Source: Antedon mediterranea (taxonomy: Eukaryota; Animalia; Echinodermata). Taken from it: a stretch of DNA of 64,000 bases. Below, in pieces: positions 443 to 61,960 of the stretch. The stretch's first letter is position 1. Each line of letters starts with the position of its first letter. A program made the position numbers and the translations under genes. The notes under the pieces were generated by a model. The model saw only the letters and a program-made list of their open reading frames with translations. It did not search any database and had not been told where the DNA came from. The stretch is from assembly GCF_964355755.1 (NCBI RefSeq), contig NC_092672.1:12090001-12154000 (forward strand). Reading direction: 5' to 3'.

Positions 443-547
443 CTTATCTTTTAATGTAACCGATGCACCATGGGTTAATAGACTGTTCACTACCTCTGAC
501 TTACAATTGGAATTGGCCAAGTATGATCTTAGAAGTGTTTCACCATT
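443..547 (-). CDS. Ankyrin repeat exon ([35 protein letters not shown])
   Basis: 105 nt, tttttttcag|...AAG|gtaata, phase 0-0. Confidence 0.9.
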
Positions 548-3500: not shown

Positions 3501-6500
3501 GAGTGGTGGAAAGTAGGTGCGTGTAGGCCTCGAGGCTAATGCATGTTACAGTCACTGCTGGCCTGGATGTGACTGACTGTCAGTAGGCCTAGCACACACA
3601 GGCCTAAGTTTTAGAGGAATTGTTGCCTAATAACGTACTAAAATGTATATTTTCTTTTCACTATCCTTATACGAACATTAGTCACGTCGTAGGTGTTTGT
3701 ATTTCTGAATAAAAAGAAGAAGAAACTATAGGCTAGGCCTACTAACGGCACTCGTATTTATTGTCGTCTTTCACTCGACGGACACAAAAAAATATTTGTT
3801 GATAGATGACGTCATTTCAATCATGTCGTTGGTTGGCAAGAATCCATAATTACCGCGCGGTATTTTCACAAAATCGAATCTGTTTCAATCCTGAGCGGAT
3901 TTCCGCTCAACCGCTCGTCCGCTCCGCGTTCTGTGTAAATGGTCATAAGAAATAACATAGATTCTATTTTTGCGTTTTCCGCTCAACTTTACCGCTTACC
4001 GTTACCGCTCGTCTGTGTAAATTGGCCTTTAGAGGGTGCGCGAGCGAAGCGAGTTTTGAGTTCAATTTTATTCAGTTTCTTTAATATTTTTGTTTTGAAA
4101 GCTTCGCTTCACGTATAAACGTAAAACTAGTAGTAGTAGGTTGACGATGTACTGACGCATATTAGTATGTTGACGCGGGTTTCAAACGTAAGTTGTTAAC
4201 GCAAGTTGACGTCAAGTAGCAGGATAGAAGGTAATACAACGCGACGATTTATCTCCACTCGCACAGAGTAACTACTAAAAGCAGGGAAATATTTTAATCT
4301 AGCAATGGGTGGCCAATATATTTTTTTATGTCCGAGAACGAATATTAAGTAAGAAGTTACAAATCAGATACAAAAGAGCTATTGTTTAGCCAATAAAAAT
4401 CAAAAATATTTAATAGACTTTTATTAATTGGTGATGCTAAAACAAGAAGATTAATCAAAAGACAATTTACAAAATACTGTGTATTCCTTTCGGTAAAAGT
4501 TGATTTAAATAATTAAACAATACATTTATCAAAAAGGAAAAATGAAAAAAAAACCAAACAAAATGATTTGCCTTTATTGAAATTCAAATTAAAAATTAAA
4601 TTTTGCAAGCTTATCTCTAATTATCTAATTAAATGTACTGGTAAAAAACTATAAATAGTATGGCGAGAGTGATATAACAACTGTAGAATGATAATTTCTT
4701 ATTATGATGTTGTTTCTTCATATGCCTGACAATAAAAATTATAATTATTTTATCTTAATGAGTTTTGAGTTCAATTTTATTCAGTTTCTTTAATATTTTT
4801 GTTTTGAAAGCTTCGCTTCACGTATAAACGTAAAACTAGTAGTAGTAGGTTGACGATGTACTGACGCATATTAGTATGTTGACGCGGGTTTCAAACGTAA
4901 GTTGTTAACGCAAGTTGACGTCAAGTAGCAGGATAGAAGGTAATACAACGCGACGATTTATCTCCACTCGCTAGTGATCAATTAGGCCTAGAATCAGGTA
5001 AATAATCATTGTTACAACTCCAGGCCTTCAAATTTTATATCACCTTCAAATCTACGAAAACCTCTTTTTTGCTTCACCTAAAAAGAGCTGATTTGAAATA
5101 ACTTGTACTGTACAAACACGAATAATACAAACATTAAAAAAAAAAATTCAATCCAATGTAAAGTTCATTAATTACCTTGTCTGTTGATGTGACTGATGCA
5201 CCATGGCTTAAGAGACTGTTCATTATCTCTAAATTACAATCGGAATATCTGAAGTGTAAACTTAGCGGTGTGTCTCCATCCTAGAAAAAAAGTTTTCTAA
5301 TTCTTAAGATTGTGTTTCAATTCATCAATATACTCATATATATATTTATATGATATAAAAAAACTATTATCTTCATATCGAATATTTAAGATAAAATAAA
5401 TTCCCTTCAACATTATGACATCTTGTATCACGTATCGTCCATCAAGTATTTATCACATGAGTTCAATTTGAAATTCAGTTCGTGTGCTTAACTATTTTAC
5501 GTTTAGTCAAGTCTTTTGTCAACTTAAAATGGTCATTTAGTGGAATTACTAACTAACTAGCGCCGTCTACATATACTGTTGTACTGAATGAATACATGCC
5601 CGGATGCAGGAAGATGAAGCTCCGACTCGCGTGTTTGTTGTTGTTGTTCCCTGATTGTTAGGATATTCTACATTTAATGGTGTTAGGACACAACAAATTG
5701 GAGACGTAGTGGAGCTATCATATATCGTAATTTCTCTCTATATATTCTGTTGTGCAGAAACTTACAGAGGTAAAGGTTATTGGAAAATGAATAATGAATA
5801 TCTCAAAGATGAAATATAGGCCTACTGCAACACGATTAACGAATTAATTGAGAATTGCATTACAAATTTTAGTGAACCTCTGTCACCTTCCGAATTATGG
5901 GCAATGTGTAAAAATAAAATACGTAGTTTTAGAATTGAATATAAAAAATCCAAGAAAAAATTAAAAGAAGTCAAATTTAAGTAAGTATGATTAGAGCATG
6001 GAAGGGTAGAAACCTATCAATGATTGGCAGAAATATAATAGTTAAATCATTGTTAACATCCAAACTAACTTACATTGCTTCAACCATCGTCGTAACTGAT
6101 GAGGTCGTGAAAAAGTTAAACACAATATTTTTTAATTCATTTGGAATAGATCCGAGGGTGTTAAAAGAGGCACAACGACCAGCGAATATCAATAGGTGGA
6201 TTAAAAGTGTTCCACCTTGGCTCCTATTTAGAATATATTACTAAAATAAAACATCTAGGTTTAAATTTGCTTATCATAACACTTAAAGATATATATAAGT
6301 TTGATCAAACACTACGATACGAAGAAATGATACAATGTGTCAAACAAGAAAACGAATGCGGCAATTTTACTCTATTCTATAAATAGCACGATTGAGATGC
6401 CTAGCAGAGTCAATGTGGCAAAAAAAAATGGGTATACCTAGACAAAATTAGAACAGAATTTATTTTTGTGGTAAATATCTATAAGATACATCAGAGCAAC

Positions 6501-39500: not shown

Positions 39501-42500
39501 ATCATTTGCATTTGCTGCCTTTGGTGAAGGTAAGCCCTCCCAAAGTGAAACTAGGAATATTTACAAATTAAATGTGGAAAATAAATATGGTGGGTGGGAA
39601 ATAATTAATTGCATTGAAGTTAAATCGATATGTGCACCCATGTTTAGAGCTAAGGTTCCACAGTCCTTCTTGAAAGCAGTAGCCCATCTCCCATTAGCAG
39701 ATGACTATGACAAAGAGAGGTAGATCCATGTTAACATTTTAGTGGGCTTAGATTATCATTGGCCATTTATGGGACGTGGCATACACAATCTTCCAGAGGG
39801 TCTGGTAGCCCAAGACACTGTTTTCGGTTGGGTTATCTCAGGGAGATGGAATTTGAATGACAATATAAATGTTACTCGTAATCATAATGTTAATGTATCC
39901 CCACAGTTGCTTTGCATTACAGACATACCCGATGACAGATTGAACAAATTCTGGGATCTAGAAACAATTGGAGTAAAACCAAGTGATGGAGTGCAAGATG
40001 CTGTACTGAAAGAGTTCAATGAGAGCATACGTCTGGTGAATGAGAGATATGAAGTTAAGTTACCATGGAAAGAGGGTATGAAAGAGTGCCTTCAAAATAA
40101 TAGAGAGATAGCCAAGGTGAGGTTAAATAGTATGAGTAGGAGGCTTGCTAAAGACAAAGAATTAGGTTAAAAATATGAGGCCTCTATCTCTGAAATGGAA
40201 AGATTAGGCATAATTGCTGAAGCTGACACCACAGATAGTGGTATTGTTTATTACCTTCCCCATTACCCAGTAGTGAAAGATGCCAGTTTTACAACCAAGG
40301 TTAGGGTGGTATTCGATTCCTCTACTAAATGCAATAATGGGATTTCACTGAATGATTGCCTAGAAACGGGGCCCCCACTTATACCAGGACTTGTTGACAT
40401 TTTTATTACGGTTCCGAAGGTGGAAAATTGGATTAACCTCTGACATTACAAAGGCATTTTTTGCAAATCAAGGTCCATAAGGATGACCAAAATATCTATA
40501 GGTTTCTTTGGAAAAGGGAGGACAAAATCAGAACAATGAAATTTCTGAGAGTGCCATTTGGCCATGCTAGTAGCCCTTTTTTATTAAATGCCACAATTCG
40601 CCACCATTTGACAAAGTACCCAAGTTGCCTCCCCATTACAGAACTATTAAGGATAACCTTTATGTAGATGACTGGCTCACAGGAGCTGACTATTATGAGG
40701 ATGCATTATTATTGTTTCAACAGGCAAAAGAAATCATGGCCCAAGGGAAATTCCCCCTCACATCCTGGAACTCTAATAACACAAAGATTATTGAAAATGT
40801 TCATCTGGTTTGTAGGTATAAGTATATTGGAAATATTCTTTTTTTCAAATCAATAATTAGTAAAACTAACCTTGACAGTGTCGCTGTCCTGCTGATCGGA
40901 CAGCTTCTTCAGAAATAATGACGATTATCACATGTATGACCCTGTCATTAAACAGAATAGGCCCTCTAGAGGTCAGTCTGTTTGATGATAGCAAAGCAAA
41001 GATAGTGTAGAGTAGGAAGATGTTACACTTCGCTTAAAAATTAGAGAACCGCTCTAGATAGGGCGCCTCTCACGACAAGTAGGGATAGACGAATCTCAAA
41101 CATAAGGAGCGCAATGCCAAAGCCCAATGAAAATGGTGTTTTCGGCAATAAATTGTAAAAATAAGCCACAAAAAACAAAACAAAAACTTCTTTTTTGTCT
41201 TTATTATACAAATTTAAAAATTAATATGATGTTTTCATACTGTTTTTGGATCTTTTTAATTGTTAATACATTTATTTGGAGTGAGTTTTGGCATGATATG
41301 ACTGTAAACACTGAGATAGGATCAGGAGGAGGCTTACGCGCGCCTGTAGACGCATTCATGAATGGATGCTGGTCATCTCGTACCCAAACCAACCCGTAGT
41401 AGTCAAGCGATCAACCAATTACAATTGAATAATTTTAATTTTATTAATTTACCAATGAAATACATAGCCTACTACAAATTGATTCTGAAATAAACTGGGA
41501 TGGTGCGATGGGATTTGGTAGGGATGTCAAGAGGTACACCATCACATCAGACTCGGGCTGAGGTATAGGCAGGGAGTTGTTATTAATAACAACTCCCTGG
41601 TATAGGTAGGCCTACAACAATTTTTGAGAATATGAGCGGGAAATTCAAATAAAATAATGTAGCCGTAGGGGGTGGTACCCACGCTTCCCAAAAAGTGTTT
41701 GCGCTATATTAGTATATAGGACCAGATATATGAATTAATTAATAATACTAAACAATCTAAAAAATAAATCTTTTTATTTAAAAAAATGTAATTGAATGAA
41801 TGTTAATAAACATAAACGAAACCCATAAATAACAATCTTTTTTATTGTGTAATAAAAAGTTGATGTTATACGATATTATAATAGAGGGATTATGCCTCAT
41901 TTTAGTTGTTTATGTTATTCTAAGAAAACTGCACATAGGCCTACATACATTATGTTCACTTTAGCACTCTAGTATTTTAAAACATTGATGACTAGCAATT
42001 ATACACGCCCGGGCGGGTTTCCTATGTAGTTTTAAAACTTCACAGTACATTCCCGATCATTTGATAATTCATTATCCAGATGCCCTAAAATGTACCCACC
42101 TCCCCAACACACACCCGCACTCGGGGATTTTTTAACTTATAATGTTAAACTTCTTGGTACAAATTCTATTGCAAACCCCGGCTCTATGACGGTTTTCAAA
42201 TTCAGTTAAAACATACCCCCAGTTCACATTACTCATGTGGTCATTGATACTAGCCCCAGCAAATCACTAAGCCTCTCCAACCCCTCTAACCTCTGCACAC
42301 TGTGATTTTTTTAAATATAGTTTAAAACCTTCCCAGTACAATTGTGGTCATACAATCACGAAATATTGTGCTACCTACATTTGAGAAAGTGTGCAATCCT
42401 TTAAAAAAATTGTGCTCCTCTTTGAGAAATTGTGCAATATGCAAAATTCAGGAAATTGTGCTACCTTTTTGAGAAATAATTGTGCTAACCATTCGGGAAA

Positions 42501-45500
42501 TTGTGCTACCTCTTTGAGAAATTGTGCTACCCATTCGGAAAATTGTGCTACCTCTTTGAGAAATTGTGCTAACCATTCGGGGGGAAATTGTGCTACCTCT
42601 TTGAGAAATTGTGCTAACCATTCGGGGGGAAATTGTGCTACCTCTTTGAGAAATTGTGCTAACCATTCAGAAATTGTGTTACCCATTCGGGAAATTGTGC
42701 TACCTCTTTGAGAAATTGTGCTAACCATTCGGGAAGTTGTGCTACCTCTTTGAGAAATTGTGCAATCCATTCCGGAAATTGTGCTACCTCTTTGAGAAAT
42801 TATGCAATCCATTCGGGATATTTTGTGCTACCTCTTTGAGAAATTGTGCTAACCATTCGGGAAATTGTGCTACCTCTTTGAGAAATTGTGCTAACCATTC
42901 GGGAAATTGTGCTACCTCTTTGAGAAATTGTGCTAACCATTTGAGACATTGTGCTAACCATTCGGGAAATTGTGCTACCTCTTTGAGAAATTGTGCTAAC
43001 CATTCGGGAAATTGTGCTACCTCTTTGAGAAATTGTGCTAACCATTTGAGACATTGTGCTAACCATTCGGGAAATTGTGCTACCTCTTTGAGAAATTGTG
43101 CAATCCATTCCGGAAGTTGTGCTACCTCTTTGAGAAATTGTACGTACGGTATACCTATTTGAGAAATTGTGCTATCTTTTTCACATTTTTTCATCCCCTT
43201 CATAATCCATATTCCTATATCTTACCATGCACCAACTCATTCCAAATGTTAAAGGATACAAGATATACTGTGAAGGGATTTAATATATGTGCCAACAATA
43301 CTTTATCGCATTATACAGGTTCACATTTTTAGTCGCGTGGACGCGACTCTATAGTTCACTATGTCGGTCGGTCTGTCGGTCTGTCTGTCTGTCGGTCCGG
43401 TATCACTATGCATGTTATCGCTTTCTGACCTTATCTTGATATCAGTTTAATCTTAAGTCAATTTTTCACAGTATATTCCTTATGGCCAGGAATCGATGTG
43501 GTTATGTTTTCACGGTGCGCAATAAAAAATTACGCGGTCTACGCACGATTTAACGAAATCACGTTTGTAATCATATCTTCACAACCATGAATCACAATTA
43601 AATAAAATTTGGTACTCGTAAATTTCAGGGCATAAATCATCATATGGCAATACAATTACGTGCGTAGCGCATGTAACGCATGCGTACGCGCGCTTAAAAT
43701 TTTCAAAATTTATTTTCGATGAAATAAGAGTACGTTTCAGGCAATTTTAAGCGTTTACAAAATTGCCATGAGTGCGCAGATTTTTGCGCGCGCACTGTGC
43801 GCGTTAAATGTTATTGCGCACTCTTTTTGCCCGATTTCTGTTTTCTTGACTTAGTTTTTAACTAGAAATTACGTTATATGAGCACGTCAAAAGTGACAGG
43901 CTACGCACGTGTAAATTAAAAAAATATAAATGTTTTTAAACATTTCAACATTTTTACACATGTTCAGTAATTTCGATCAGTGTACTTCACTATGTCGGTC
44001 GGTCTGTCGGTCTGTCGGTCGGTCCGGTATCACTATGCATTGTAGTAGCACGCGACTTAATGGCTGTTGGCCTTGTTTTTTAACGGACAGGAATTTTTTA
44101 AGAATAAATACTCTATAAAATTTAATTCAAATTAGGCCCATAATATATGTTAAAGTGGAGCTCCACCCAGAAAATTACTATTTTTCATACATTTCAACTA
44201 TTATTTAAAAATATCATCCCCCATACTTCATATTTTTTTGAATTTTTTTTCAATGAGTACGAGTTTCTTGAAAATCACGCCTTTTTGCGTTTTGGGGGGA
44301 TACCTTGTAATTTCCTATTCTTTTACATGCAAAAGGGGGGTATATTTGAATAATCCTAAAAAATTAATTTCTTCACTAAAAAAAAAATTTTAAATGTAGT
44401 TTTATGTAATTTTTCCAGATCTTTCTATTTCTGGTATAGTTATCGCGTATACATTGCGCAATTTTGCGTAAATAGACACTTTCCCCCTTTCGGGTCCAAT
44501 TGGGTTTTTTATTTTGCTAGGGAGTATGATCACGTGACATTTTTCACAATCACACTACTGCAGCTGGCGATCTGTTATTTTGTCGCGATGTTATTTTTGA
44601 CGGGCAAAAAGTATATTAAAACATTCTGAATTTGACCCTATCATGTTTCACAGTGTAATAATGTGATTATGAGACTTAATACTAAAATGTCAAATCTAAC
44701 GAGATTTGAGAAAGATGTGGCTATATATTCAATAAAGCTAGGCCTAGGCCTACTAGAGTGTAGGTATGTACCGATGCTGCTTGGGCTCCAGCTGCTAGGC
44801 TGACACTCAGCAGTGAAGTTTGTTCTGCTGTCACCCAACCTCGGCCTACCCATATGGGCCATGATAGGGTGCCTGAATAGTTGCTTTTCAGTCAGGCCTA
44901 AGCTTCCACATCGCTTTACTACTCTTGTTCTGTATAGGATTTTGTGTTTCACAATTCTAATGTGCGAGAAAACCCAGGAATGATAAATGGGGCGAAACGA
45001 CCAAGAATTTTCAAACCCATGAATGCATATAGGCCTAGACAAAAAATTCAAGGCTAGCTAGGCTGAGCAGACGGCTTAGCTAGGCCTAGCTTAAAGTTAA
45101 TAAACAATCTGATAAGATTATTATGCTGTTGTTGTACAGTGCAAATCATGAGGTTACAATACATGTAAATTATACCAGGGAGTTGCTCCCTGATTATACT
45201 GACATTTTTATCGGAAATATTACTTAGGCCTAAAACAAATCGTATAAAATGTATTCCCAATTTTTCGACACATAATTTACCAAAGGGGAGACATTTCACC
45301 CATGCGTTCACCGGCGACTAAAACGCGTCAGTTGCTAAGTGTAACGCGTTTTGCGACGTATTGTAAACTAATAACCCCTAAGTTACTGAAAAAGTGTAAT
45401 GTATTAAAAAACACTATTTTCTGACCGATTTTTTTAAAAACGAGTTTTTGGAAAATATTTCCGTATTTTCCCTGTTTTTTTTATGTAATCACTTTCATTT

Positions 45501-48500
45501 AAACATACTTAAACATAATATAAGCTGAGAAAGTCTGAGTGTAGCTCCACTTTAACATGGCAATTGTTAATTTTCAAATTAAAATAAATATATAGCATGC
45601 ACATACAGATTCTATTCAGTGTATTAATTACAGTAACTGATTTTTTAGTTAATCGTTAAAATAATGATATCCTGGCCTATAACAAAAATGTTCCATCTGT
45701 AACATTAACAACCATTTTTTAATATTTACTTAGACCTAATCTATTGATTACAATTCAGGAGTTACAAATTAAGAGTTAACATTTTTGGTATCATTACTTC
45801 ACACAACTTAGACAAACAAATGTCACATTAATGTGTAATAAAAACTGAACTATTATGTATTGAGAAAAACATCAATATATATTTCCTCCATAAATGTGCA
45901 TACAATTGGGGTATACTCAAGAAAAGGGATTTATAATTGAGACATAAAGTAACTATTATATAAAATATGATTATAAAATACAGTATTTAATTGTTTGCTT
46001 ATAATTTGAAATAGTATTACTGTACTATTTATTATAGGCCTATATATTTAACATTAGAGTGGTGGCAAATCCATAGAGATCATTTTGAGATCTCAGCTGA
46101 AGAACATGAAATAGTTTATAAATATAGTTTTAATTTCAAGTTTTTGCTTTTCCAGCGATTTTAGTCTGGATGCACAAAACACACATTTTTATTTTAAACT
46201 CATCTCTACAGTTCATTCTTTGGCTCCCTGCTATTAGATTAGAACTGACCTTGCTAACCACAAGGCCACTTGCATTCTTAAATTTTGTGTGCAAAAAATT
46301 TACCCATGGTATAATGGTGGTTTCTAAATACAATGAGTGACCAATTCCAAAATAGGCTGTGCATTGCAGCCAATCAGAAGCAAGGAAGGCTGAGCCTGGA
46401 AGATGAACAAGGTGTTACGTGATTTATTAATTGACTAAGACATTAATGACTGGCTTTAGGCAAAAATAAACAAGTAAGATGCCAGAGGCAAAAGCTCACG
46501 CTAAACAGGGCTCGTTCTCCTAATGATCATCATATAGTTGGTGGATTTCCCATTTGTTTCATTTGATAAAAGTAGTATATTTATGTCTTTGCTCATATGA
46601 TTGTTTAAAACTAACACAATCAAGTTTCCCAATCTTTTTGCTCAGGGCTTTCTTAACAAAAGTAGGGCTTTCTAATAATATGAACGTATTATCAATTGTA
46701 CTGTATCTGTGTATAAACCCCACTTGATCTTCATGTATGATATTATTTAGTTATACCCATTTCTTAACTCCTTTTTTATATCATTCGTGTTATTATTGGG
46801 TACAGTATTAAGTAACATATTGATCTGTAGTTTTTAACATTATTTGTGTTGTTTTCTTTTTGAATGTGAACTCGAATTAGTTAAATAAACCTCAATATTT
46901 ATTATTTTTAAAAAACAGTTTTTATAATGTAGAGAATATTCGTGGACGGTCTCTTAAAACTTGAAGTCGTTAGTTTAGGGATCAATTTAATTTAAGGTGG
47001 TTAATGCGGTCTATGACTTATTGTAATGGTAATGGGGCGTGTTCTTTTTTGTTAGGACATGTGTTTAAATGTGATTATGCCAGCCATCACATATTATTTT
47101 AGTGTAACTAGTTAGTTCTTTGACATTTTTAAATCTCTCTCAAAAGCCTTTTCCATTTTGCTTTAATGTTGTTAAAATATGTTTCTGTCATTCGTTCCTT
47201 TCGTATGCTATTTTGTTTCCTTTTTAATTAGTACTTTGTGTATCTGTTTACTTTCAGTTCTTTTAGTAGCCTCAGTTATTGTCTCTATGAATCTGTTTAA
47301 GTTCCTTTTAATGTCATGACATGACATTCAGCATCGAATAAGGGTTTATTTTTGTTTTGTGTATTTGTACTGCTAATGCGTGGTATTATTCTCCTTCCTT
47401 CTGCGTCATAATGCAGATGTCCCAACTAATAAACCACATAGCGCGCTCATTGTATTTGATTAGCTGAAAAAACATTATTACAATATTATTTATTCACTGT
47501 AAAACTGATTATTTACCTTATTTGTTGATGTTACTGATGCACCGTGTGTTAAAAGAATATTCACTATCTCTAACTTACAACAGTAAGAGCTTAGGTATGC
47601 ACTTAGCACTGTGTCTCCATCCTGAAAACAAATTAAAATGGCTGATGAATAGGCGGGTATGGTTACCACTTTACCTTTTAAATATTGTCAAGATATTATC
47701 AATATTAACTCGTTGGCTTACTATTATCTACGTATGGTTTCAAATCGATGTCCGGTGTTTGTTGCGTGCGTGCACGATTCTACAAGGTCAAGGTCCTATA
47801 CCATTACATGCTACTTGTAGCGTGGGGTTAACTCGTTGGCTAATACTATTATGTACAGACATATATATTTTGAACAATTTGACATCAAATACAAAATACA
47901 GCTGTCTATATACTACAAGCCGTTAACCGATTTTTTAAAAATTGGCGGCCATCTTGTTAACATAAAATGTTGAACCTTTGCGGTAATCCGATTTGAGTAA
48001 ACTTTTGATATATATTTTTTAGACCATATTTTATTGTAATAATACATAAAAAACCATTTTCTGGCATTTTTTGTGGAGTAATGCAACAGTTTTACTCGAC
48101 TATCAATTAAACCAGCTTACTGTACTTGTTAAAACTGGGCTCTGATTTGTAAATTTTACACTCGTATTTATATAGTATTTAAATTTACATAAAAAGCAGT
48201 TTTTTATGACCTGACCTTGGGCGAAATTAGATCGAGAAACATAACTATGTTCCTTCCTTCCTTCCGAACTAGACTCATAATATTCCAATATTGTATTACT
48301 TAGTGTAGTTAGTTCAAACAGGAACATGTTAACACTATCTCAAATTACAACTTAAATTAACTGTTTTCAATCGAATTAATTTTGAGCTGAGATATTTTCA
48401 TTAATTGCATTGTTTCCTCATCCTTCTTGGTTTTGAATAACTTGCTCCTGAATTACCAACTATGGTAATACTAACTAGCATGGTTGACCGTGCAAATAGT

Positions 48501-51500
48501 CACTACCGTAATTACTTTTAAAGTGACCGGAAGATGCATGTAATTAAATTTTTTTATTGGCATGGTTTACTGTACTGTACGCATACTTCTCTGTGTTCAT
48601 AATAAATAGAATTCGATAGCGAGAATAAAAAAAAACAAGGTTACATACATGGTTGCAGTCGCGTGCTCAAATTTGAGTTAGTTTTTACCGACCGACCAAC
48701 CGGCCATCCGACCAACATAATGAGCTGTAGATTCGACAGGCGATAGAAAACAAGGGAATTAGATGCCTTGTTAATCGTATTGTTTGCAGTCGCGTGCTCA
48801 AATAAACAAGAAACATAAAGGACAGGCAAACACAGAGATCAACACAAGAAAAGGGTGAGTAACTAATCTACACTCTAATTACCATAATTATACTTTCATA
48901 CTGACAGTGGCATTTATTTTATACATTGATATTTCTTGTTGATACTTGTATTATGATATTATTAATTCTAATAGTTAAGTCTACAATGTTATTAGCTTAA
49001 TTAATTTACAGCCTGGCCACTCCCTATTTTTATTCAAGGATTTTATTCAATAAAACGAAAATTTACATAGTAGCCAAAGGCTAAATTGTGTAAAATTTTT
49101 CAAAATATTGCACACATAAAAAAGTTGTCATATTAAAAAAACATCTTATATTAAAATGGAATTAGATAAAGTACATAATATGAAAATGAGAAAAACAGTG
49201 AAAAAATCAAAGAAATTGATACAAATCATAGCCTAATAAAATATCTGTATTAAAACTTATGTATTATTTGTTTATTATTTCACATTGGTTGATGAAGGCT
49301 ACTTTGGCTAAATGTAATTATTCTTTATTATTCAACAGGTTAATTAGGTATAGTAAAGGGCTATTTTTATATCGTTTAGTTTTACATTTTATTTGTTGAT
49401 ATGGGTTGATCTTTCTTAAGTTGTACGGTTTACTTCTAGTATAAATAAAATATGCTAACTTTTCGAGGTCTTCAGCAAACCTTAGACATAGGTAATTATT
49501 ACTTCTAGTAGAGATGGTTTCTAAATTACATACACTGAGAGCATTTTCATTGCTTATATAGTTTATAACAAGAATTATTCTAAGTACCCTCTTTTGTATT
49601 GCTTCCAATTTATCAATCTGATTGTTCGTTATGCCAGAATTCCAAACAGGAACAGCATACACAAAAAGAGGTCTAATATAACCCATGGTAATTAGGTCAT
49701 CTTTATTAAGCTGGAATTTCTTAAGTAAATATATATGTTACTGTTCACTTTTAAGATGTTAAATATATGGGCATTCCATTTTAGATCAGAACTAATCAAT
49801 AAACCTAGGATTTGCATACAAGGTACAATCTTTAGTTGCTTATTATCTATTTGCGGAACAGTGTAGTAGTAGGAGGGGATATTGAAAAATCAATAAGCAT
49901 AGCAGCACATTTGCCCGCATTCAGTTTCATATTATTATCGCATGACCATCTCCCAATGGCATTTAAATTTGTTTGCATGTTACCTGGTGTACCAATTCTA
50001 TGATTGTCAATTAAAGTCATAACATCTACATATTTTAAGTATTAATATTACTGTTGGTAATCAGATACGGTAGTATTCATTTACACATTGTGATCTAATT
50101 TTATTGATATAATTTTATGTAATCATAAATTTAATCAGATTTATTATTTGTTTATCAGATTGAATTTATTTGTAGTATTTGCTATTGAAAAATAAAAAAG
50201 AACGGTATTTTGGAAACCAGTTTCGGCAGTTGTTTATAATAAAGATCGCGTTGCAACTCAATTTTTACTCCAATAAAACCGGTTCCGTCCATGTGCGATG
50301 CAATTACGAGGTTCGTAATAAAGATGAGAGGGAGACTATCCGCAGTCGGAAGAAGACTCACATGTTGTAAAGCGTGTGAAAGACGAGTTCAACTTGACAA
50401 TATCGGAGGGTGCGACGTACCTATACTTTAACCAAGGACCACAATAGCATTTCAGGCAATAATGATAGGATTACCTGCCCCTTATATGACGAAATGGATG
50501 CAATTCTTGGGGATCGCGCTATGCCTCGATCCAATCGCGCTTCCGCCTAATGAACTGCATTATGGTATATAATAACATCATTCATAGCGAACGCACATGG
50601 ACGGGACGCTTTATTTTTTTTCCTATCCCATTAAGGCAGAAATCATGAATAATTCATTAGAATAATTATGACATAATATGGCACATTATAGAGGGCGCTA
50701 TATAAGCATGCAAAGAGATAAAATAATTTGTGTAAACATCTTTTGCCAACCGAAATGTTTGGTTTAGTGGTAAAGGCTTTAACCTACCTATTACACTTGA
50801 GCCCTCAGTTCAAGGTCTTTCAAGAACATGTCTTTTTTTAAATAGTTTAGAGAGATTATTTAGAGGGTTAGTGTACGCGATTGGCGTACCATACTTACAT
50901 GGGGTTTTGGACAGCGTGGTGTGTTCAAACAGGTTGGAGGTATATTCAGAGCGTCATTTCGACGATCGAGCATTCTCTACTTCTACGGAGCGCCATTTAT
51001 GCCTTTATTTACTTCCAAATTAGAAATAGTACTACGGTAACTGCTCCAGTGGACCAAATTTAGCACCGGTGGAGCACAGTGATATAAAATAGAAATAAGT
51101 CACTAATTTTAATATCTTTTCGTATGTAAATACAATGTGCTCAAGTGGACCCAATTTGGAGCCAGGGGAGAACAATAATATAAAATAGAAATAAATCACT
51201 GAATTTTAATATCTTTTCGTATGTTAATACACTGTGCTCAAGTGGACCCAATTTGGAGCCAGGAGAGCACAGTGATATAAAATAGAAATAAGTCAATGAT
51301 TTTTAGTATCTTTTCGTATGTTAATACACTGTGCTCAAGTGGACCTTCAGAGCGTCGCGAACGTTCTGAAGGTTTCGCAAATACGGTTTACAGTTCAGGA
51401 AGTGTGCAAAATCAAGGAACAGTTTCAGCTATGCCAGCTACAGTTGCTGTTGCACGTAAAATCAAGAACTGTATATTTTGTAATAGGACAAATCATAGCT

Positions 51501-54500
51501 CATGGAAATGTAGACAACTTAGATCGATGACACATACTGAGAAATCGAATGCGATTAAGGAAGCACACGCCTGCTTCAAATGTTTGAACACTAGTCACTT
51601 TGCAAGGAAATGCAGTTTCAAATGTCGCAGTTGTATAAACGGACCTCATCATGAAATTATCTGCCAGAAAGGAACAACACAGACAGCCACTCCGGTTCCA
51701 GTTTCCACAGAACCAGTAGTCCAAGCTGCAACTACAGAACCATTAGTCCAAGCTGTAACTACAACTCATTCTAACACTGACATTCCTCATAGTCATACTG
51801 TCTTACAGACTGCTAAAGTCAGAGTTAAAGGTAGTAAAGGTGACTGTCTAGTAACTGTCATGTTTGACACAGGTTCTGATAACACGTATGTATCAAGTAA
51901 TGTTGTAAATAAGGTAGGACCTGTATGGTTAACATCCAAATCATTTGCATTTGCTGCCTTTGGTGAAGGTAAGCCCTCCCAAAGTGAAACTAGGAATATT
52001 TACAAATTAAATGTGGAAAATAAATATGGTGGGTGGGAAATAATTAATTGCATTGAAGTTAAATCGATATGTGCACCCATGTTTAGAGCTAAGGTTCCAC
52101 AGTCCTTCTTGAAAGCAGTAGCCCATCTCCCATTAGCAGATGACTATGACAAAGAGAGGTAGATCCATGTTAACATTTTAGTGGGCTTAGATTATCATTG
52201 GCCATTTATGGGACGTGGCATACACAATCTTCCAGAGGGTCTGGTAGCCCAAGACACTGTTTTCGGTTGGGTTATCTCAGGGAGATGGAATTTGAATGAC
52301 AATATAAATGTTACTCGTAATCATAATGTTAATGTATCCCCACAGTTGCTTTGCATTACAGACATACCCGATGACAGATTGAACAAATTCTGGGATCTAG
52401 AAACAATTGGAGTAAAACCAAGTGATGGAGTGCAAGATGCTGTACTGAAAGAGTTCAATGAGAGCATACGTCTGGTGAATGAGAGATATGAAGTTAAGTT
52501 ACCATGGAAAGAGGGTATGAAAGAGTGCCTTCAAAATAATAGAGAGATAGCCAAGGTGAGGTTAAATAGTCTGAGTAGGAGGCTTGCTAAAGACAAAGAA
52601 TTAGGTTAAAAATATGAGGCCTCTATCTCTGAAATGGAAAGATTAGGCATAATTGCTGAAGCTGACACCACAGATAGTGGTATTGTTTATTACCTTCCCC
52701 ATTACCCAGTAGTGAAAGATGCCAGTTTTACAACCAAGGTTAGGGTGGTATTCGATTCCTCTACTAAATGCAATAATGGGATTTCACTGAATGATTGCCT
52801 AGAAACGGGGCCCCCCTTATACCAGGACTTGTTGACATTTTTATTACGGTTCCGAAGGTGGAAAATTGGATTAACCTCTGACATTACAAAGGCATTTTTT
52901 GCAAATCAAGGTCCATAAGGATGACCAAAATATCTATAGGTTTCTTTGGAAAAGGGAGGACAAAATCAGAACAATGAAATTTCTGAGAGTGCCATTTGGC
53001 CATGCTAGTAGCCCTTTTTTATTAAATGCCACAATTCGCCACCATTTGACAAAGTACCCAAGTTGCCTCCCCATTACAGAACTATTAAGGATAACCTTTA
53101 TGTAGATGACTGGCTCACAGGAGCTGACTATTATGAGGATGCATTATTATTGTTTCAACAGGCAAAAGAAATCATGGCCCAAGGGAAATTCCCCCTCACA
53201 TCCTGGAACTCTAATAACACAAAGATTATTGAAAATGTTCATCTGGTTTGTAGGTATAAGTATATTGGAAATATTCTTTTTTTCAAATCAATAATTAGTA
53301 AAACTAACCTTGACAGTGTCGCTGTCCTGCTGATCGGACAGCTTCTTCAGAAATAATGACGATTATCACATGTATGACCCTGTCATTAAACAGAATAGGC
53401 CCTCTAGAGGTCAGTCTGTTTGATGATAGCAAAGCAAAGATAGTGTAGAGTAGGAAGATGTTACACTTCGCTTAAAAATTAGAGAACCGCTCTAGATAGG
53501 GCGCCTCTCACGACAAGTAGGGATAGACGAATCTCAAACATAAGGAGCGCAATGGCAAAGCCCAATGAAAATGGTGTTTTCGGCAATAAATTGTAAAAAT
53601 AAGCCACAAAAAACAAAACAAAAACTTCTTTTTTGTCTTTATTATACAAATTTAAAAATTAATATGATGTTTTCATACTGTTTTTGGATCTTTTTAATTG
53701 TTAATACATTTATTTGGAGTGAGTTTTGGCATGATATGACTGTAAACACTGAGATAGGATCAGGAGGAGGCTTACGCGCGCCTGTAGACGCATTCATGAA
53801 TGGATGCTGGTCATCTCGTACCCAAACCAACCCGTACCCAAACCAACCCGTACCCATAAAAACTCTTACCCATCTTGGTAAACCCCAGTCAAGTCTGAAG
53901 TCATAATGCAAATTTTACAGTATACAGTATTGTTGTTGGCAAACAATATATGATTTATGAATAAATATATTTTCTATAAAGCAATTTCTATAAAACTCTA
54001 GGGGTAGAATCTTTAAATTCATTTCTATAGTAGAAATTATCTGTTTCATCTATAGATTAACATAGAATTCTAAAACTTCTATTGATAGAACATTTTTTGT
54101 AAGGGTAGTATAATGAAAGGGGGTAAAGTAGGCCTCCCCATGGATATTTTTTCCTTTATATAACCTTACTAATAATGAACTTATTGGCTTATAATTAATA
54201 TTATCAATAATGTTAGGCGTTACAATCATGGCATATAAAATTACGTTGAATGCACGAAAGTTCAGAGTGTTACAAGCATAACGGTTACAGTATTATTTCA
54301 GTAAAAAAACATACCGTACTCGTAGTCCTAAATTCCTATAATGTTCAGTGTATGCAGATCGACTATTTGTATAATATTATTGATTACAATAAATATTGAT
54401 TGATTGATTGATTATTGATTACATGGCATACTACCTATTCTCTTTTATTACCCTTAGAAATAAACCATACGTAATCGATTATTATATAGGCATACACATT

Positions 54501-60500: not shown

Positions 60501-61919
60501 CCATTTGCGTGTTTCAAAACATTACTGCGCAAAAACAAATTTTTGCGCACGCGATACTTAAAAAGCGTAAAAAATACGAATTTTAGTCAGTTCCGACTTA
60601 AAATAACGCTATACGAGCAGGTTAAAAAAGACAACATGTGCAAATTAATTGCATCAAAGTGCTGAAAATGGTGAAAAATAAGGCATTTTTAAAATGAAAG
60701 TAATTCTTCAGAATGCAAGATGACAAGCAATTTTTTTAACTTATTCTGGAAGCCATTGAGTTTTAGATATGAATTCATGTACACATTTTACGTACAAAAT
60801 GTTATGACGTCATCAAATGGCCACTTGAATTTAAAATTGTTTTTTTTTCTCTTTCGTCATATTTTATCACATTCAATAGAACGTATATTTTTTACCCAAT
60901 TTTCGCTCAAATTTTAGTATGTGATTGCTCAATTAATTGACGTTCTCACGACTTGCCACTATTTTATTTTGATGACCTCATCACGCGTAAAAACTTGAAT
61001 AACGTAGGTCGTTAAATTTCACCTTCGCCGTAAATTTGAATATCTTACAGCTCTTCGGAATTGAAGGTTACCTTGATGATTATAATTTATTATGAAGGCT
61101 AATGAAATGTAGATATGAATTCATATAAAAAACAAGCCTACCGGATGTTGTGACGTTAACATATGGCCAGTTGAAGTTAAAAAGCAGTTTTTTCATCTTT
61201 TTCGTCAAAGTTATAAAAATTTCAAAGAGCGCGCACAGCAATTCTACGTGCCAAATTCTCTTCCAATTCTTATATTTATTTGCTCAATTCATTATCTTTC
61301 GAAATTGTCATCTTCTAGTTTATTTTGATAATTCCATCATACCACAAAATTAGAACATGATGTGTGTCCCGTAATTTCACCTATGTTACACTGTATATAG
61401 ATACATTATATACTGTACATATTGTATATGGCATATAATAGGCACAACTCAGAACTATAAGCGTATAATAGGATGGCATACATCAACATTTTCTGATCGT
61501 ATGTTAACGTACATGCATGTAAAAAAAAATTATTTCAGTAAAATGATAAAAATTATCACCTATAATTCATCAAAGTGACGAATTAAATTCTAGTATTATA
61601 ATTATAATTGTTTTTTAAACCTTATTGGTTTCGTCCACAAGATGCGGATATGTTGTGCACAATCTTTTAATTTCTGCCACGTGTTCACGTTTAATAGCTC
61701 TTAATAACGAATTTCTGAAAAAAAAAAACATTTGAAAGTGCATTATAGCAGAAATATGCGGTTGATAATGTAATATGTTTATTGTTTATGCTTCTAAGCA
61801 AATAGTAAAATTGATTTTTTTAAATATAAATTACATTATTAAAAAATTATTCAAAATTAAATAATTCAGTCTCCAACAGTGTTTAATGATAATATAAGAA
61901 ATACAACTTACAGCTCCAT
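443..61919 (-). CDS. Spliced multi-exon ankyrin-repeat protein gene, 3'-incomplete. CDS join (minus): 61912-61919, 61621-61714, 47517-47621, 35078-35182, 26730-26831, 25051-25155, 24310-24414, 5176-5280, 443-547
   Basis: Every exon has a polypyrimidine-YAG acceptor and a GT donor, phases are compatible (2, then all 0), and the joined frame is open for 278 aa: [34 protein letters not shown] followed by 7 ankyrin repeats. No stop codon is reached in the window. Confidence 0.85.
1610..1790. repeat. Dispersed repeat; diverged inverted copy at about 63062-63247
   Basis: AATATAAACGTCGTAGTGGTGTATCGT...CAATATTTCGTTACTGAGTGGATAAAGAATATA matches the reverse complement of 63062-63247. Confidence 0.8.
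3020..3245. repeat. About 16-bp minisatellite (GGGTAGTTGTCCTAGA)n, with weaker copies at 2250-2300
   Basis: Repeated gtagttgtcctag motif with a poly-G interruption. Confidence 0.8.
3402..4028. mobile_element. PIF/Harbinger-like MITE
   Basis: About 40-bp TIRs (A[A/G]GCCAATTTACACAGACGAGCGGTAACGGTAAGCGGTAA), TTA direct repeats at 3399-3401 and 4029-4031, and a second internal IR pair (CCATTTACACAG). Confidence 0.8.
4051..4971. repeat. 212-bp direct repeat pair (4051-4262 and 4760-4971)
   Basis: Apparently identical copies, offset 709 bp. Confidence 0.9.
5176..5280 (-). CDS. Ankyrin repeat exon ([35 protein letters not shown])
   Basis: 105 nt, ttttttctag|...AAG|gtaatt, phase 0-0. Confidence 0.9.
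5660..6260 (+). mobile_element. Decayed Tx1/L1-clade LINE ORF2 fragments
   Basis: [15 protein letters not shown] and [25 protein letters not shown] motifs typical of L1/Tx1 ORF2. Confidence 0.65.
6507..6608 (-). mobile_element. Short HINE/DINE-1-like (Helentron-associated) element
   Basis: Reverse complement of the ttttAGTCGCGTG..CGCGACT / (GTCG)n / GGCCTTGTT family seen at 30888 and 63247. Confidence 0.65.
6810..8025 (+). mobile_element. Older CR1/L2-group LINE, 5' part (APE endonuclease to pre-RT), frameshifted
   Basis: [58 protein letters not shown]. Confidence 0.8.
8026..10690 (+). mobile_element. CR1/L2-group (Crack/Daphne-like) LINE, 5'-truncated, nested in the older LINE
   Basis: ORF 9028-9999 carries RT motifs [40 protein letters not shown]; C-terminal ORF 10096-10374; AATAAA and A-rich tail near 10680; 5' end locally duplicated (8026-8107 / 8121-8201). 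Confidence 0.9.
10700..11910 (+). mobile_element. Older LINE, 3' part (RT and C-terminus), continuing 6810-8025
   Basis: [55 protein letters not shown]. Confidence 0.8.
12131..12167 (+). ncRNA. Minimal type I hammerhead ribozyme motif (Penelope/retrozyme type)
   Basis: GCA-CTGATGA-A-GGGC(tagtgtt)GCCC-GAAA-GC-TC-TGC: intact core, 4-bp stem II, palindromic AGCT stem III, GCA/TGC stem I; sits in a ~200-bp segment flanked by (TA)n/(TG)n. Confidence 0.75.
13158..14990 (+). mobile_element. Old DNA transposon remnant (Academ-like) with long inverted arms
   Basis: 13158-13340 is a diverged inverted copy of 14805-14990; interior has a frameshifted transposase-like C-terminus (W.G..DLTP..W..., [21 protein letters not shown]). 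Confidence 0.45.
13724..13830 (-). mobile_element. Short HINE/DINE-1-like element
   Basis: AACAAGGCC...(CCGA)n...GAGTCGCGTTGCACGCGACTAAA. Confidence 0.7.
15200..15530 (+). mobile_element. Gypsy pol C-terminal/3'UTR fragment
   Basis: [20 protein letters not shown], the TRSGR...P.R motif typical after integrase, followed by purine tract AAAGAAGGAAGA. Confidence 0.5.
15530..16870 (-). mobile_element. CR1-like LINE fragment (RT), internally deleted
   Basis: ORFs 15874-16362 ([33 protein letters not shown]) and 16453-16947; (AAAT)n-like tail at 15530-15560. Confidence 0.8.
17012..18655 (-). mobile_element. Ty3/Gypsy pol fragment in Gmr1-like order (integrase C-terminus, RT, RNase H)
   Basis: [31 protein letters not shown] precedes [36 protein letters not shown] and RNase H ending [15 protein letters not shown]-stop. 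Confidence 0.85.
18659..19940 (+). mobile_element. Academ-like DNA transposon derivative with transposase C-terminal fragment
   Basis: Starts TAG where the Gypsy breaks off; three subterminal TTTATTCATGT.AA..GATACAA repeats; FYRKGK...INEARY..F...LPPC....QHLLRANY...W....P..P..YGW motif; 70-bp IRs at 19026-19095 / 19863-19936. Confidence 0.7.
19983..20420. mobile_element. Possible solo LTR
   Basis: TGTTACGG...CCGTAAGA imperfect terminal IR; no TSD seen. Confidence 0.3.
20833..21306. repeat. Tandem repeat, about 110-155-bp units, 3.5 copies
   Basis: Recurring TAATCAATACAGTAGTCGATCCATT.TGGATAAGTAACGATATTTA. Confidence 0.85.
21300..22540 (-). mobile_element. L2-clade LINE RT fragment
   Basis: [67 protein letters not shown]. 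Confidence 0.88.
22540..23600 (-). mobile_element. CR1-group LINE 5' ORF fragment: 2A-like peptide, PHD finger, APE endonuclease
   Basis: [13 protein letters not shown], then [23 protein letters not shown], then SLKNK..TETWL, YYRPP, LLGDFN. Confidence 0.8.
24310..24414 (-). CDS. Ankyrin repeat exon ([35 protein letters not shown])
   Basis: 105 nt, tttttttcag|...AAG|gtaatt, phase 0-0. Confidence 0.9.
24575..25961. repeat. Direct repeat pair in consecutive introns (24575-24750 and 25766-25961)
   Basis: ACCTAGGCCTGTATAGTAT.TGGGTCGGGTCATTAGGGAGTTTGCTCCTACTCTGGAACAT...ATTAAAAATATC occurs in both, with a ~20-nt indel. Confidence 0.9.
25051..25155 (-). CDS. Ankyrin repeat exon ([35 protein letters not shown])
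   Basis: 105 nt, ccttttccag|...AAG|gtaatg, phase 0-0. Confidence 0.9.
26730..26831 (-). CDS. Ankyrin repeat exon, 34-aa variant ([34 protein letters not shown])
   Basis: 102 nt, ttttttttag|...AAG|gtaatt; one-codon deletion in the variable loop preserves the frame. Confidence 0.88.
28030..28570 (-). mobile_element. Decayed LINE RT fragment; its upstream part resumes near 34090-34900
   Basis: [15 protein letters not shown]; EDQVGF near 34275-34295 on the same strand. Confidence 0.6.
29131..29160. mobile_element. 30-bp perfect palindrome with 7-bp flanking direct repeats (transposon footprint); copy at 41570-41599
   Basis: GTATAGG-CAGGGAGTTGTTATTAATAACAACTCCCTG-GTATAGG. Confidence 0.7.
29921..30736. 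repeat. 42-bp minisatellite of two alternating 21-mers; copy at 42360-43175
   Basis: (GAAATTGTGCTACCTCTTTGA GAAATTGTGCTAACCATTCGG)n. Confidence 0.95.
30888..31638 (+). mobile_element. HINE/DINE-1-like element, long form; copy at 43327-44077
   Basis: ttttAGTCGCGTGGACGCGACT 5' hairpin, (GTCG/GTCT)n microsatellite, 3' CACGCGACT subTIR plus GGC-tgtt-GCC hairpin, T-rich target. Confidence 0.75.
31715..33112. mobile_element. Kolobok-like non-autonomous element; copy at 44154-45551
   Basis: TTAA TSDs (31711-14, 33113-16); TIR AGTGGAGCT.CAC.CAGA. Confidence 0.8.
32737..32753. mobile_element. 17-bp footprint of the same CAGGGAG family with 7-bp TSD; copy at 45176-45192
   Basis: ATTATAC-CAGGGAGTTGCTCCCTG-ATTATAC. 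Confidence 0.65.
35078..35182 (-). CDS. Ankyrin repeat exon ([35 protein letters not shown])
   Basis: 105 nt, ttttcag|...AAG|gtaaat, phase 0-0, open frame. Confidence 0.88.
36585..37590 (-). mobile_element. CR1/L2-group LINE 3' fragment; copy at about 49024-50029
   Basis: [43 protein letters not shown]-stop, followed by an AATAAA-rich tail. Confidence 0.75.
37838..38171 (+). mobile_element. Harbinger-derived MITE with Myb/SANT-like remnant; copy at about 50277-50610
   Basis: IRs CCGTCCATGTGCG / CGCACATGGACGG with TAA/TTA flanks; internal [28 protein letters not shown]; an empty-site homolog of the flanks lies inverted at 56455-56592. Confidence 0.65.
38604..38906. repeat. About 97-bp tandem repeat, 3+ copies; copy at 51043-51345
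   Basis: GCTCAAGTGGACCCAATTTGGAGCCAGG...TATCTTTTCGTATGT.AATACA.TGT repeated. Confidence 0.9.
38907..40795 (+). mobile_element. BEL/Pao LTR retrotransposon gag-pro-RT fragment (pseudogenised)
   Basis: Three Cys/His knuckles (CIFC..H....C; CFKC....H....C; CRSC....HH...C), protease [47 protein letters not shown]. Confidence 0.92.
40871..40915 (-). ncRNA. Hammerhead ribozyme-like motif (GAAA changed to GACA); copy at 53309-53353
   Basis: Minus strand: TTT-CTGAAGA-A-GCTGTCC(gatcagca)GGACAGC-GACA-CTG-TC-AAG; perfect 7-bp stem II and GUC cleavage triplet. Confidence 0.6.
47517..47621 (-). CDS. Ankyrin repeat exon ([35 protein letters not shown]), duplicate copy
   Basis: 105 nt, ttttcag|...AAG|gtaaat, phase 0-0; identical to 35078-35182. 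Confidence 0.85.
51346..53233 (+). mobile_element. BEL/Pao fragment, duplicate copy
   Basis: Same motifs as 38907-40795, inside the second duplication unit. Confidence 0.92.
54535..56435. repeat. 633-bp tandem triplication
   Basis: Units start at 54535, 55168 and 55801 (TTCACTCTGATGAAGAAG); only a handful of substitutions noticed. Confidence 0.97.
56756..58013. mobile_element. Academ-like non-autonomous element with long TIRs
   Basis: TAGTCAGG...CCTGACTA termini, 3-bp TTA TSD (56753-55, 58014-16), ~185-bp near-perfect inverted arms, internal direct repeats. Confidence 0.8.
58096..59218. mobile_element. Kolobok-like non-autonomous element
   Basis: TTAA TSDs (58092-95, 59219-22); TIR AATGGACCTGAAATGGA. 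Confidence 0.8.
59628..59964 (+). mobile_element. 3' LTR (337 bp) of an LTR retrotransposon, preceded by a polypurine tract
   Basis: GAGCAGGGGGA|TGTAAC...GTTACA. Confidence 0.7.
61621..61714 (-). CDS. N-terminal capping ankyrin-like exon ([31 protein letters not shown])
   Basis: 94 nt; strong acceptor tttttttttttcag; AAG|gtttaa donor; ends in ...NK at phase 0 like the repeat exons; helix-loop-helix ankyrin-cap pattern. Confidence 0.75.
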
Positions 61920-61960
61920 TAAAGCACAATACTTTGTAGTTACCAATCATTCACTGGTTG
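61912..61960 (-). CDS. Exon with 5'UTR and start codon (ATG 61919-61917; ATG GAG CT, phase 2)
   Basis: Acceptor ttttttttttcag and perfect donor gtaagt. In-frame TGA lies upstream of the ATG. The phase-2 end matches the 1-nt overhang of the next exon, giving M-E-L-N. Confidence 0.7.

What the first reader, a model, noticed from the sequence alone, without database searches (positions are those of the whole stretch)
443..61919. Hidden one-exon-one-repeat ankyrin cassette array: candidate diversifying receptor gene
Seen: seven homologous 105/102-nt exons scattered over 47 kb of transposon debris. All are phase 0-0, all end in AAG|GTAA, none has a stop, each encodes exactly one ankyrin repeat, and they follow a start exon and a capping exon. 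Because the exons are symmetric, any subset can be skipped, duplicated or swapped without breaking the frame. Established: modular repeat-per-exon genes underlie receptor diversification elsewhere (Dscam alternative exons; LRR/TPR exon shuffling in brown algal ROCO and NB-ARC genes). Inference: this could be a modular ankyrin binding-protein system, diversified by alternative splicing and/or exon copy-number change, possibly immune related.
Basis: partly seen in the sequence, partly recalled or inferred. Interest (0 to 1): 0.9.

Follow-up and report, generated by a model that had tools for sequence, protein, structure and literature searches.

The report
Feather-star ankyrin-cassette ROCO sensor gene
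Seven tiny exons, each coding one ankyrin repeat (two are identical copies from a very recent duplication), form the front end of a gene, likely from a feather star, that probably belongs to an expanded family of sensor-GTPase (ROCO) proteins with cell-death domains; the repeats appear to multiply by copying exons in the genome, while mix-and-match splicing and an immune role remain untested.

Summary
In detail: seven phase-0 exons of 105/102 nt on the minus strand, each one ankyrin repeat, behind a start exon and a capping exon. One correction: two of the seven are identical and lie inside a 12.4-kb tandem duplication (99.98%), so there are six distinct repeats plus one fresh copy.

The closest relatives are uncharacterised crinoid proteins (Antedon, Anneissia) built as cap + 34-38-aa ankyrin repeats + Roc-COR GTPase + death-fold or HEPN tail. 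A cap profile made from those proteins alone finds the window's cap exon. Repeat number differs among these predicted paralogues (2, 4, 6, 8, 13), and repeats cluster by gene in a tree. The exons are under purifying selection overall (pN/pS 0.51), with change concentrated on the predicted binding face; positive selection is not shown.

Best reading: the 5' sensor half of a crinoid ANK-Roc-COR-death-fold gene whose binding array grows by intragenic exon duplication, an animal parallel to brown-algal LRR-ROCO genes. The Roc domain would lie beyond the window's left edge and was not seen. Splicing, exon skipping, variation between individuals and immune function are untested. New variant of a known kind.

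The parts
61912..61919 (-). Coding end of the predicted start exon (ATG at 61919, phase-2 donor GTAAGT). An acceptor just before 61960 implies an untranslated exon further upstream.
   Evidence: Sequence; intron of 197 nt with GT..AG ends; frame open when joined in a script. Splicing is predicted.
61621..61714 (-). N-terminal capping-repeat exon (phase 2-0)
   Evidence: 14 of 30 residues identical to the N-terminus of Antedon mediterranea XP_071944626.1; only significant hit in the window's six frames for a cap profile built from 8 crinoid relatives (E 9e-7, next 0.46); no Pfam hit.
47517..47621 (-). Ankyrin exon 1 (105 nt, phase 0-0), in copy 2 of the tandem duplication
35078..35182 (-). Ankyrin exon 1' (105 nt), identical to exon 1, in copy 1 of the tandem duplication
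26730..26831 (-). Ankyrin exon 2 (102 nt, one codon shorter in the variable loop)
   Evidence: covered by contigs with 0-1 differences in runs X1, X2, X4
25051..25155 (-). Ankyrin exon 3 (105 nt)
24310..24414 (-). Ankyrin exon 4 (105 nt)
5176..5280 (-). Ankyrin exon 5 (105 nt)
443..547 (-). Ankyrin exon 6 (105 nt); its donor is intact, so the gene is predicted to continue beyond the window's left edge
   Evidence: no Roc, COR or death-fold match in the window (best E 0.25 for 18 family proteins)
28959..41397 (.). Copy 1 of a 12,439-bp head-to-tail duplication holding one ankyrin exon and its flanking intron; junction near 41397/41398 with about 3 nt of microhomology
   Evidence: Self-BLAST 99.976% over 12,440 columns; junction compared with both flanks. 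Not verified in reads.
41398..53836 (.). Copy 2 of the duplication

Best explanation
These exons encode the ankyrin-repeat front end of a gene that is likely crinoid and likely continues, beyond the window, into a Roc-COR GTPase and a death-fold tail, and its binding array appears to grow by copying single-repeat exons within the gene. Shown: the exon set, its open frame, the cap and repeat homology to crinoid ANK-Roc-COR proteins, and a 12.4-kb duplication in the assembly that adds one repeat in frame. Inferred mechanism: each repeat sits on a phase-0 exon inside very long, transposon-filled introns, so almost any tandem duplication or deletion with both breakpoints in introns adds or removes whole repeats without a frameshift; the copies then diverge mostly at the end of helix 1 and the following loop, the predicted ligand face. 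The usual transcript probably includes all repeats in order. The protein would act as a cytoplasmic sensor: ligand binding to the ankyrin solenoid would alter the Roc-COR nucleotide/dimer cycle and expose the death-fold tail to adaptors or caspases. The ligand is unknown; a microbial or damage signal is my guess.
For: Top hit of the word-index search is A. mediterranea XP_071944626.1 (E 9e-53, next 1e-28): cap + six 34-35-aa repeats + Roc start. Among 285 fetched proteins the three best per-repeat scores are all Antedon (39.5, 34.4, 22.8 bits; next 20.7). A search with the repeat-to-Roc region of XP_071964198.1 gave 13 hits among 3645 candidates, all crinoid (7 Antedon including the query, 6 Anneissia); the 12 new ones all have a Roc match, 11 of 12 a COR match, with DED-like, Death, HEPN or ZU5 tails. 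Profiles built without the window find exactly its cap exon and seven repeat exons. Repeats group by gene: 3 label changes, the least possible, against 17 in shuffles. Relatives hold near-identical neighbouring repeats (0-2 differences in 4 of 6 proteins examined). pN/pS is 0.51 (bootstrap 0.37-0.75); face columns pN 0.33 against 0.18 elsewhere, permutation p 0.013. The AlphaFold model of XP_071944626.1 folds the repeats confidently, with the variable columns at the end of helix 1 and the loop after it.
Against: No Roc, COR or death-fold sequence lies in the window, and no genome is held to extend it. The relative with the best per-repeat score, XP_071943401.1, has no Roc by Pfam, though it shares the DED-like tail. 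In the tree the window's repeats join XP_071944626.1 with only 89/93 support and do not resolve as their own clade. DED matches are below Pfam's cut-off. Repeat counts come from predicted gene models that may miss small exons. The duplication was not confirmed in reads, and its three differences all fall in the last 1.3 kb. The face columns were chosen from recalled DARPin positions after I had seen the alignment, and pairwise counts are not independent.
Confidence: 0.62

Rival explanations
1. Same gene family, but diversity is made mainly by alternative splicing: cells skip subsets of the symmetric exons and make many isoforms from one gene, as reported for brown-algal LRR-ROCO genes.
For: All repeat exons are phase 0-0 and lie in introns of 0.6-19 kb, so any skip stays in frame. 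Splice variants with different LRR content are reported for two Ectocarpus ROCO genes (PMC11378527, results read).
Against: Every repeat exon has a strong pyrimidine tract and an AAG|GTAA donor. No shared 8-10-mer upstream of the exons beyond random sets (4, 1, 0 against means 4.4, 1.5, 1.2), so no sign of Dscam-type docking. No silent, inverted or broken spare exons in the window, unlike Ectocarpus (PMC3341825, passages read).
Confidence: 0.13
2. An ankyrin + death-fold adaptor without a GTPase, like XP_071943401.1: same cassette growth, different signalling core.
For: XP_071943401.1 has the best per-repeat score (39.5 bits), 13 repeat intervals, no Roc, and a tail homologous to the family's DED-like tail (27%, E 2e-9).
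Against: The window's cap exon matches the Roc-bearing XP_071944626.1 best; whole-model BLAST ranks it first (204 against 194 bits) and the 35-aa period matches it; most relatives found carry Roc (though one search used a Roc-containing query and so favours them).
Confidence: 0.15
3. A decaying or truncated paralogue of a birth-and-death family, or an ordinary non-immune scaffold; the repeat-per-exon layout is a by-product and the 12.4-kb duplication is neutral or an assembly error.
For: No transcript evidence; introns are swollen with LINE, Gypsy-like and Bel-Pao-like fragments; several Antedon models are fragmentary; the last repeat has replaced otherwise conserved residues. One repeat unit per exon is common in repeat genes (PMC3995336).
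Against: All exons keep frame and splice sites; pN/pS 0.51 with 11 invariant columns indicates purifying selection. The duplication junction is an N-free join with short microhomology, which fits a repair-type event.
Confidence: 0.1

Closest known systems
Uncharacterised crinoid ANK-Roc-COR-death-fold proteins: Antedon mediterranea XP_071944626.1, XP_071943867.1, XP_071944625.1, XP_071964198.1, XP_071964214.1, XP_071947615.1, XP_071944718.1; Anneissia japonica XP_033124951.1, XP_033108299.1
   Same: Same N-terminal cap, same lengthened 34-38-aa repeat, repeats beginning and ending in the register of the window's exon borders; 42% identity over 269 columns to XP_071944626.1.
   Different: No one-to-one counterpart found: the window's repeats are its own set. 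The relatives' exon structure could not be read here, and the window's C-terminal half was not seen.
Brown-algal LRR-ROCO and NB-ARC-TPR candidate receptors (Zambounis et al., PMC3341825, passages read; Teng et al., PMC11378527, introduction, methods and results read)
   Same: One repeat per symmetric exon ahead of a Roc-COR core; clustered, expanded family; variable repeat number; variation on the binding face.
   Different: Ankyrin instead of LRR; 105-nt phase-0 exons instead of 72-nt phase-2; animal host; death-fold tails. No spare or inverted exons, no positive selection and no splice variants shown here.
DAPK1 and LRRK1/2 (animal ROCO proteins; ankyrin and death-domain layout recalled, family context from PMC4104024 passages)
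   Same: Ankyrin repeats upstream of Roc-COR; DAPK1 also ends in a death domain.
Arthropod Dscam hypervariable exon clusters (recalled; search listings only)
   Same: Arrays of duplicated homologous exons.
   Different: Dscam picks one exon per cluster; here the repeats must stack in tandem to fold, and no shared docking-like motif was found.

Membership tests
Ankyrin-repeat protein | Tandem helix-loop-helix repeats matching the ankyrin profile | tested here: met
   6 of 6 distinct exons hit PF00023; profile hits DARPins in PDB; relative folds as an ankyrin solenoid.
Crinoid ANK-ROCO family | Family-specific N-terminal cap | tested here: met
   Cap profile from 8 relatives finds only the cap exon, E 9e-7.
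Crinoid ANK-ROCO family | Lengthened 34-38-aa repeat of the crinoid type | tested here: met
   Best per-repeat scores are Antedon proteins; profile of 34 relative repeats finds all seven exons, E<=1.5e-9.
ROCO proteins | Roc GTPase domain in the same polypeptide | not testable with these tools
   Not in the window; it would lie left of position 1; no genome held.
ROCO proteins | COR domain following Roc | not testable with these tools
   Present in relatives; outside the window.
Exon-shuffling receptors of the brown-algal type | One repeat per symmetric exon | tested here: met
Exon-shuffling receptors of the brown-algal type | Repeat number and order vary among paralogues through intragenic copying | tested here: met
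   2, 4, 6, 8 and 13 repeats in predicted Antedon models; repeats cluster by gene; duplication in the window. Gene models are predictions.
Exon-shuffling receptors of the brown-algal type | Positive selection on binding-face residues | tested here: inconclusive
   Face columns vary more (p 0.013) but pN/pS stays below 1 (0.33/0.48; columns 11-14 0.47/0.53) with only six sequences.
Exon-shuffling receptors of the brown-algal type | Non-coding, inverted or inactivated repeat exons in the introns | tested here: not met
   None on either strand of the window.
Exon-shuffling receptors of the brown-algal type | Splice variants with different repeat content | not testable with these tools
   No transcript was available to examine.
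Dscam-type mutually exclusive exon cluster | Shared selector sequences upstream of each alternative exon | tested here: not met
   Exact shared 8-10-mers in the 400 nt upstream of the six distinct exons do not exceed random sets; a crude test that would miss degenerate pairing.

The most novel reading that the evidence does not exclude
Feather stars carry an undescribed, polymorphic repertoire of cytoplasmic ANK-Roc-COR-death-fold receptors whose ankyrin binding surfaces are rebuilt by exon gain, loss and skipping, so that repeat number and order differ between individuals and between transcripts: an animal counterpart, built from ankyrin instead of LRR, of the brown-algal exon-shuffling ROCO system, with this window catching one exon gain just after it happened.
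Probability: 0.25. Interest if true: 0.8.

Novelty: new variant of a known kind. Interest (0 to 1): 0.5.

Why it matters
ROCO genes in animals are usually treated as a few conserved genes (LRRK1/2, DAPK1, MFHAS1), with an expansion noted in Trichoplax (PMC4104024). A crinoid family that couples a self-rebuilding ankyrin array to Roc-COR and death-fold domains would add a candidate intracellular receptor class in a deuterostome, laid out like NLRs but with a GTPase core, and a second repeat type for the exon-cassette route to receptor diversity known from brown algae. The window gives a concrete, testable event: a 12.4-kb duplication that adds one repeat. Such genes are easily missed, because 105-nt exons in 10-19-kb introns defeat gene prediction. 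If splicing is constitutive and copy number fixed, it remains a tidy example of ordinary repeat-gene growth.

Tried and rejected
Expression: no RNA holder listed for 24250-26900; this says nothing about expression. Run X5 (another sample, RNA only by guess) held next to none of the words; at 80% likeness it had some depth in the three exon bins and none in 4 of 30 bins, but no exon-to-exon joint among the rows shown (19 not shown), so nothing is concluded.

Variation between individuals: X1, X2 and X4 are one sample and match the window with 0-1 differences in their long unique contigs, so they may be the source individual and are not independent support. Extra depth over two exon bins (about 3-8 exon equivalents) is partly explained by the window's own exons, which share stretches of 47-128 nt at 80% or more; summed contig depth is not a copy number, so further copies are not claimed.

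No genome was held, so the gene could not be extended. A search with the first 350 residues of XP_071944626.1 among longer proteins was swamped by generic ankyrin proteins (3677 hits, 120 listed); only 2 listed hits were named Antedon. The representative-library search (6874 hits, 150 listed) ranks by repeat count and gave no names. Dscam-type docking was rejected. A transposon origin of the exons was rejected: the intronic ORFs are RT, RNase H and protease fragments unrelated to the repeats.

Literature: searches listed no paper on crinoid ANK-ROCO genes or their exon layout; I saw listings only, apart from the papers cited, and read no supplements (the domain-architecture figures and supplements of PMC11378527 may include such proteins). 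I found no open text for exon layouts of vertebrate ankyrin genes or for the numbered DARPin positions (one search confirms only that they lie on the concave face).

Full report
Observation. The window is AT-rich DNA (28-40% GC per 2 kb) full of retroelement fragments. A motif scan and profile searches found seven homologous exons on the minus strand at 47621-47517, 35182-35078, 26831-26730, 25155-25051, 24414-24310, 5280-5176 and 547-443. Each has a pyrimidine-rich acceptor, ends AAG|GTAA, is 105 nt (one is 102) and stop-free, and matches one ankyrin repeat. There is a wide gap between these hits and the next (protein E 5e-21 against 0.13), so there is no eighth, broken or inverted copy in the window. 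A start exon (ATG at 61919) and a 94-nt cap exon (61714-61621) complete an open frame of 278 codons when joined by coordinates. Introns run from 197 to 19,029 nt, all GT..AG. The splicing itself is predicted, not observed.

The exons at 47621 and 35182 are identical because both lie in a 12,439-bp head-to-tail duplication, 28959-41397 and 41398-53836, with two substitutions and one indel. The junction has about 3 nt of microhomology and no N. So there are six distinct repeats (57-69% identical in protein) and one new copy. If real, this is the proposed mechanism caught in the act: a duplication with both ends in introns adds one repeat in frame. It fits a repair-type duplication, but it has not been checked in reads and an assembly error is not excluded; the three differences cluster in the last 1.3 kb, which I cannot explain.

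What the gene is. A profile of the exons found A. mediterranea XP_071944626.1 first (E 9e-53; 26 hits among 3982 candidates). It has a 35-residue cap that matches the window's cap exon (14 of 30 identical), six repeats of 34-35 residues in the same register as the exon borders, and the start of a Roc domain. Further searches gave XP_071964198.1 (8 repeats, Roc, COR, DED-like) and XP_071943401.1 (13 repeat intervals, no Roc, homologous tail). These three have the best per-repeat scores among 285 fetched proteins. A query spanning the last repeat, Roc and the approach to COR returned 13 proteins of 3645 candidates, all crinoid; their tails are DED-like, Death, HEPN_DZIP3, ZU5 or a second Roc-COR. 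Six Antedon records share one contig length (38,962,182) and three another (22,273,604), which suggests clusters. Profiles made only from these relatives pick out the window's cap exon (E 9e-7) and all seven repeat exons. The host is therefore likely a crinoid; this is inferred from best hits. No Roc, COR or tail sequence is in the window, and the last exon's donor is intact, so the rest would lie to the left.

How the array evolves. In a tree of 32 repeats (six from the window, 26 from three relatives; repeats over 50 residues left out), repeats group by gene with 3 label changes against 17 in shuffles. The groups of XP_071944626.1 and XP_071964198.1 have 100/99 support; the window's six are unresolved beside XP_071944626.1 (89/93). 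Only 36 columns inform this tree. Four of six relatives examined hold repeat pairs differing by 0-2 residues, and predicted repeat counts are 2, 4, 6, 8 and 13. These are automatic gene models, and missed exons can fake losses (PMC5100051, passages read). Among the six distinct exons pN is 0.22 and pS 0.43 (ratio 0.51, bootstrap 0.37-0.75), so the exons are under purifying selection. Eight columns taken as the binding face (recalled DARPin positions plus the insert) have pN 0.33 against 0.18 (permutation p 0.013), but never exceed pS. In the AlphaFold model of XP_071944626.1 (repeats at pLDDT 82-95) those central columns lie at the end of helix 1 and the loop after it, and the model matches ankyrin solenoids.

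Sequencing runs. Four runs of one sample hold the region; three were laid and match the window almost exactly in unique parts, so they may be its source. No RNA holder was listed. Splicing, exon skipping, the duplication junction and differences between individuals remain open.

How it most likely works. The protein is probably a cytoplasmic sensor: cap plus at least seven ankyrin repeats as the binding surface, a Roc-COR switch, and a death-fold tail for signalling. The first part is shown; the switch and tail are inferred from relatives (about 75%); sensing and an immune or cell-death role are inferred from architecture and from analogy. Diversity most plausibly arises in the germ line, by exon-sized gains and losses in long introns plus gene duplication, with all repeats spliced in. 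Exon skipping is possible but has no support here, and a Dscam-like one-of-many choice is unlikely because ankyrin repeats fold as a stack (established knowledge) and no shared selector motif was found.

Comparison and novelty. It works like the brown-algal LRR-ROCO genes, where each repeat has its own exon, families are clustered, and shuffling, positive selection and splice variants are reported (PMC3341825, PMC11378527). It is not a member of that family: different repeat, exon size, phase and host, and no spare exons. One repeat unit per exon is itself common (PMC3995336). ANK-ROCO architectures are mentioned for oomycetes and Gonium, and about forty domain combinations for animals (PMC11378527); my searches listed no account of the crinoid family or of its exon layout. 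Unchecked notes from this scan describe a similar ankyrin-cassette gene in a mussel and in microbial eukaryotes, which suggests the layout recurs and lowers its surprise; I did not test them. Verdict: real feature, new variant of a known kind, interest 0.5.

Noticed in passing
window:54527-56435: A 633-bp unit repeated three times head to tail at 98-99% identity inside the long second intron: a second very recent tandem duplication beside the 12.4-kb one.
   Followed up: partly
window:29926-30742 and 42365-43181: A 21-bp minisatellite (about 32 copies) with open frames on both strands, followed by TGTCGGTCGGTC-type short repeats; probably part of a non-autonomous mobile element.
   Followed up: no
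window:38842-40170 and 51281-52609: Gag/protease-like frames of an LTR retroelement (Bel-Pao-like by my reading; weak Pfam protease hit), copied with the duplication.
   Followed up: partly
window:8959-9999, 15874-17927, 21264-23601: LINE reverse-transcriptase fragments and a Gypsy-like RT/RNase H fragment in the 19-kb intron.
   Followed up: partly
window:61960-61912 (minus strand): The start exon holds an upstream ATG at 61950 in another frame; after the predicted splice it would close within about 20 codons, a possible upstream ORF overlapping the main start.
   Followed up: no
window:63656-63647 (minus strand): A single GGGAAAACCC in the window, about 1.7 kb upstream of the ATG in a CpG-richer stretch; it resembles a Rel/NF-kB site (recalled) but one 10-mer can be chance.
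   Followed up: partly
window:26831: The 102-nt exon begins with GT, so splicing to any upstream AAG would recreate a weak donor at the junction.
   Followed up: no
window:4051-4262 and 4760-4971: An exact 212-bp direct repeat in the intron between the last two ankyrin exons.
   Followed up: no
P0286 (XP_071947615.1): An Antedon model with two ankyrin repeats, two Roc-COR units in tandem and a hydrophobic C-terminal end that may span a membrane.
   Followed up: no
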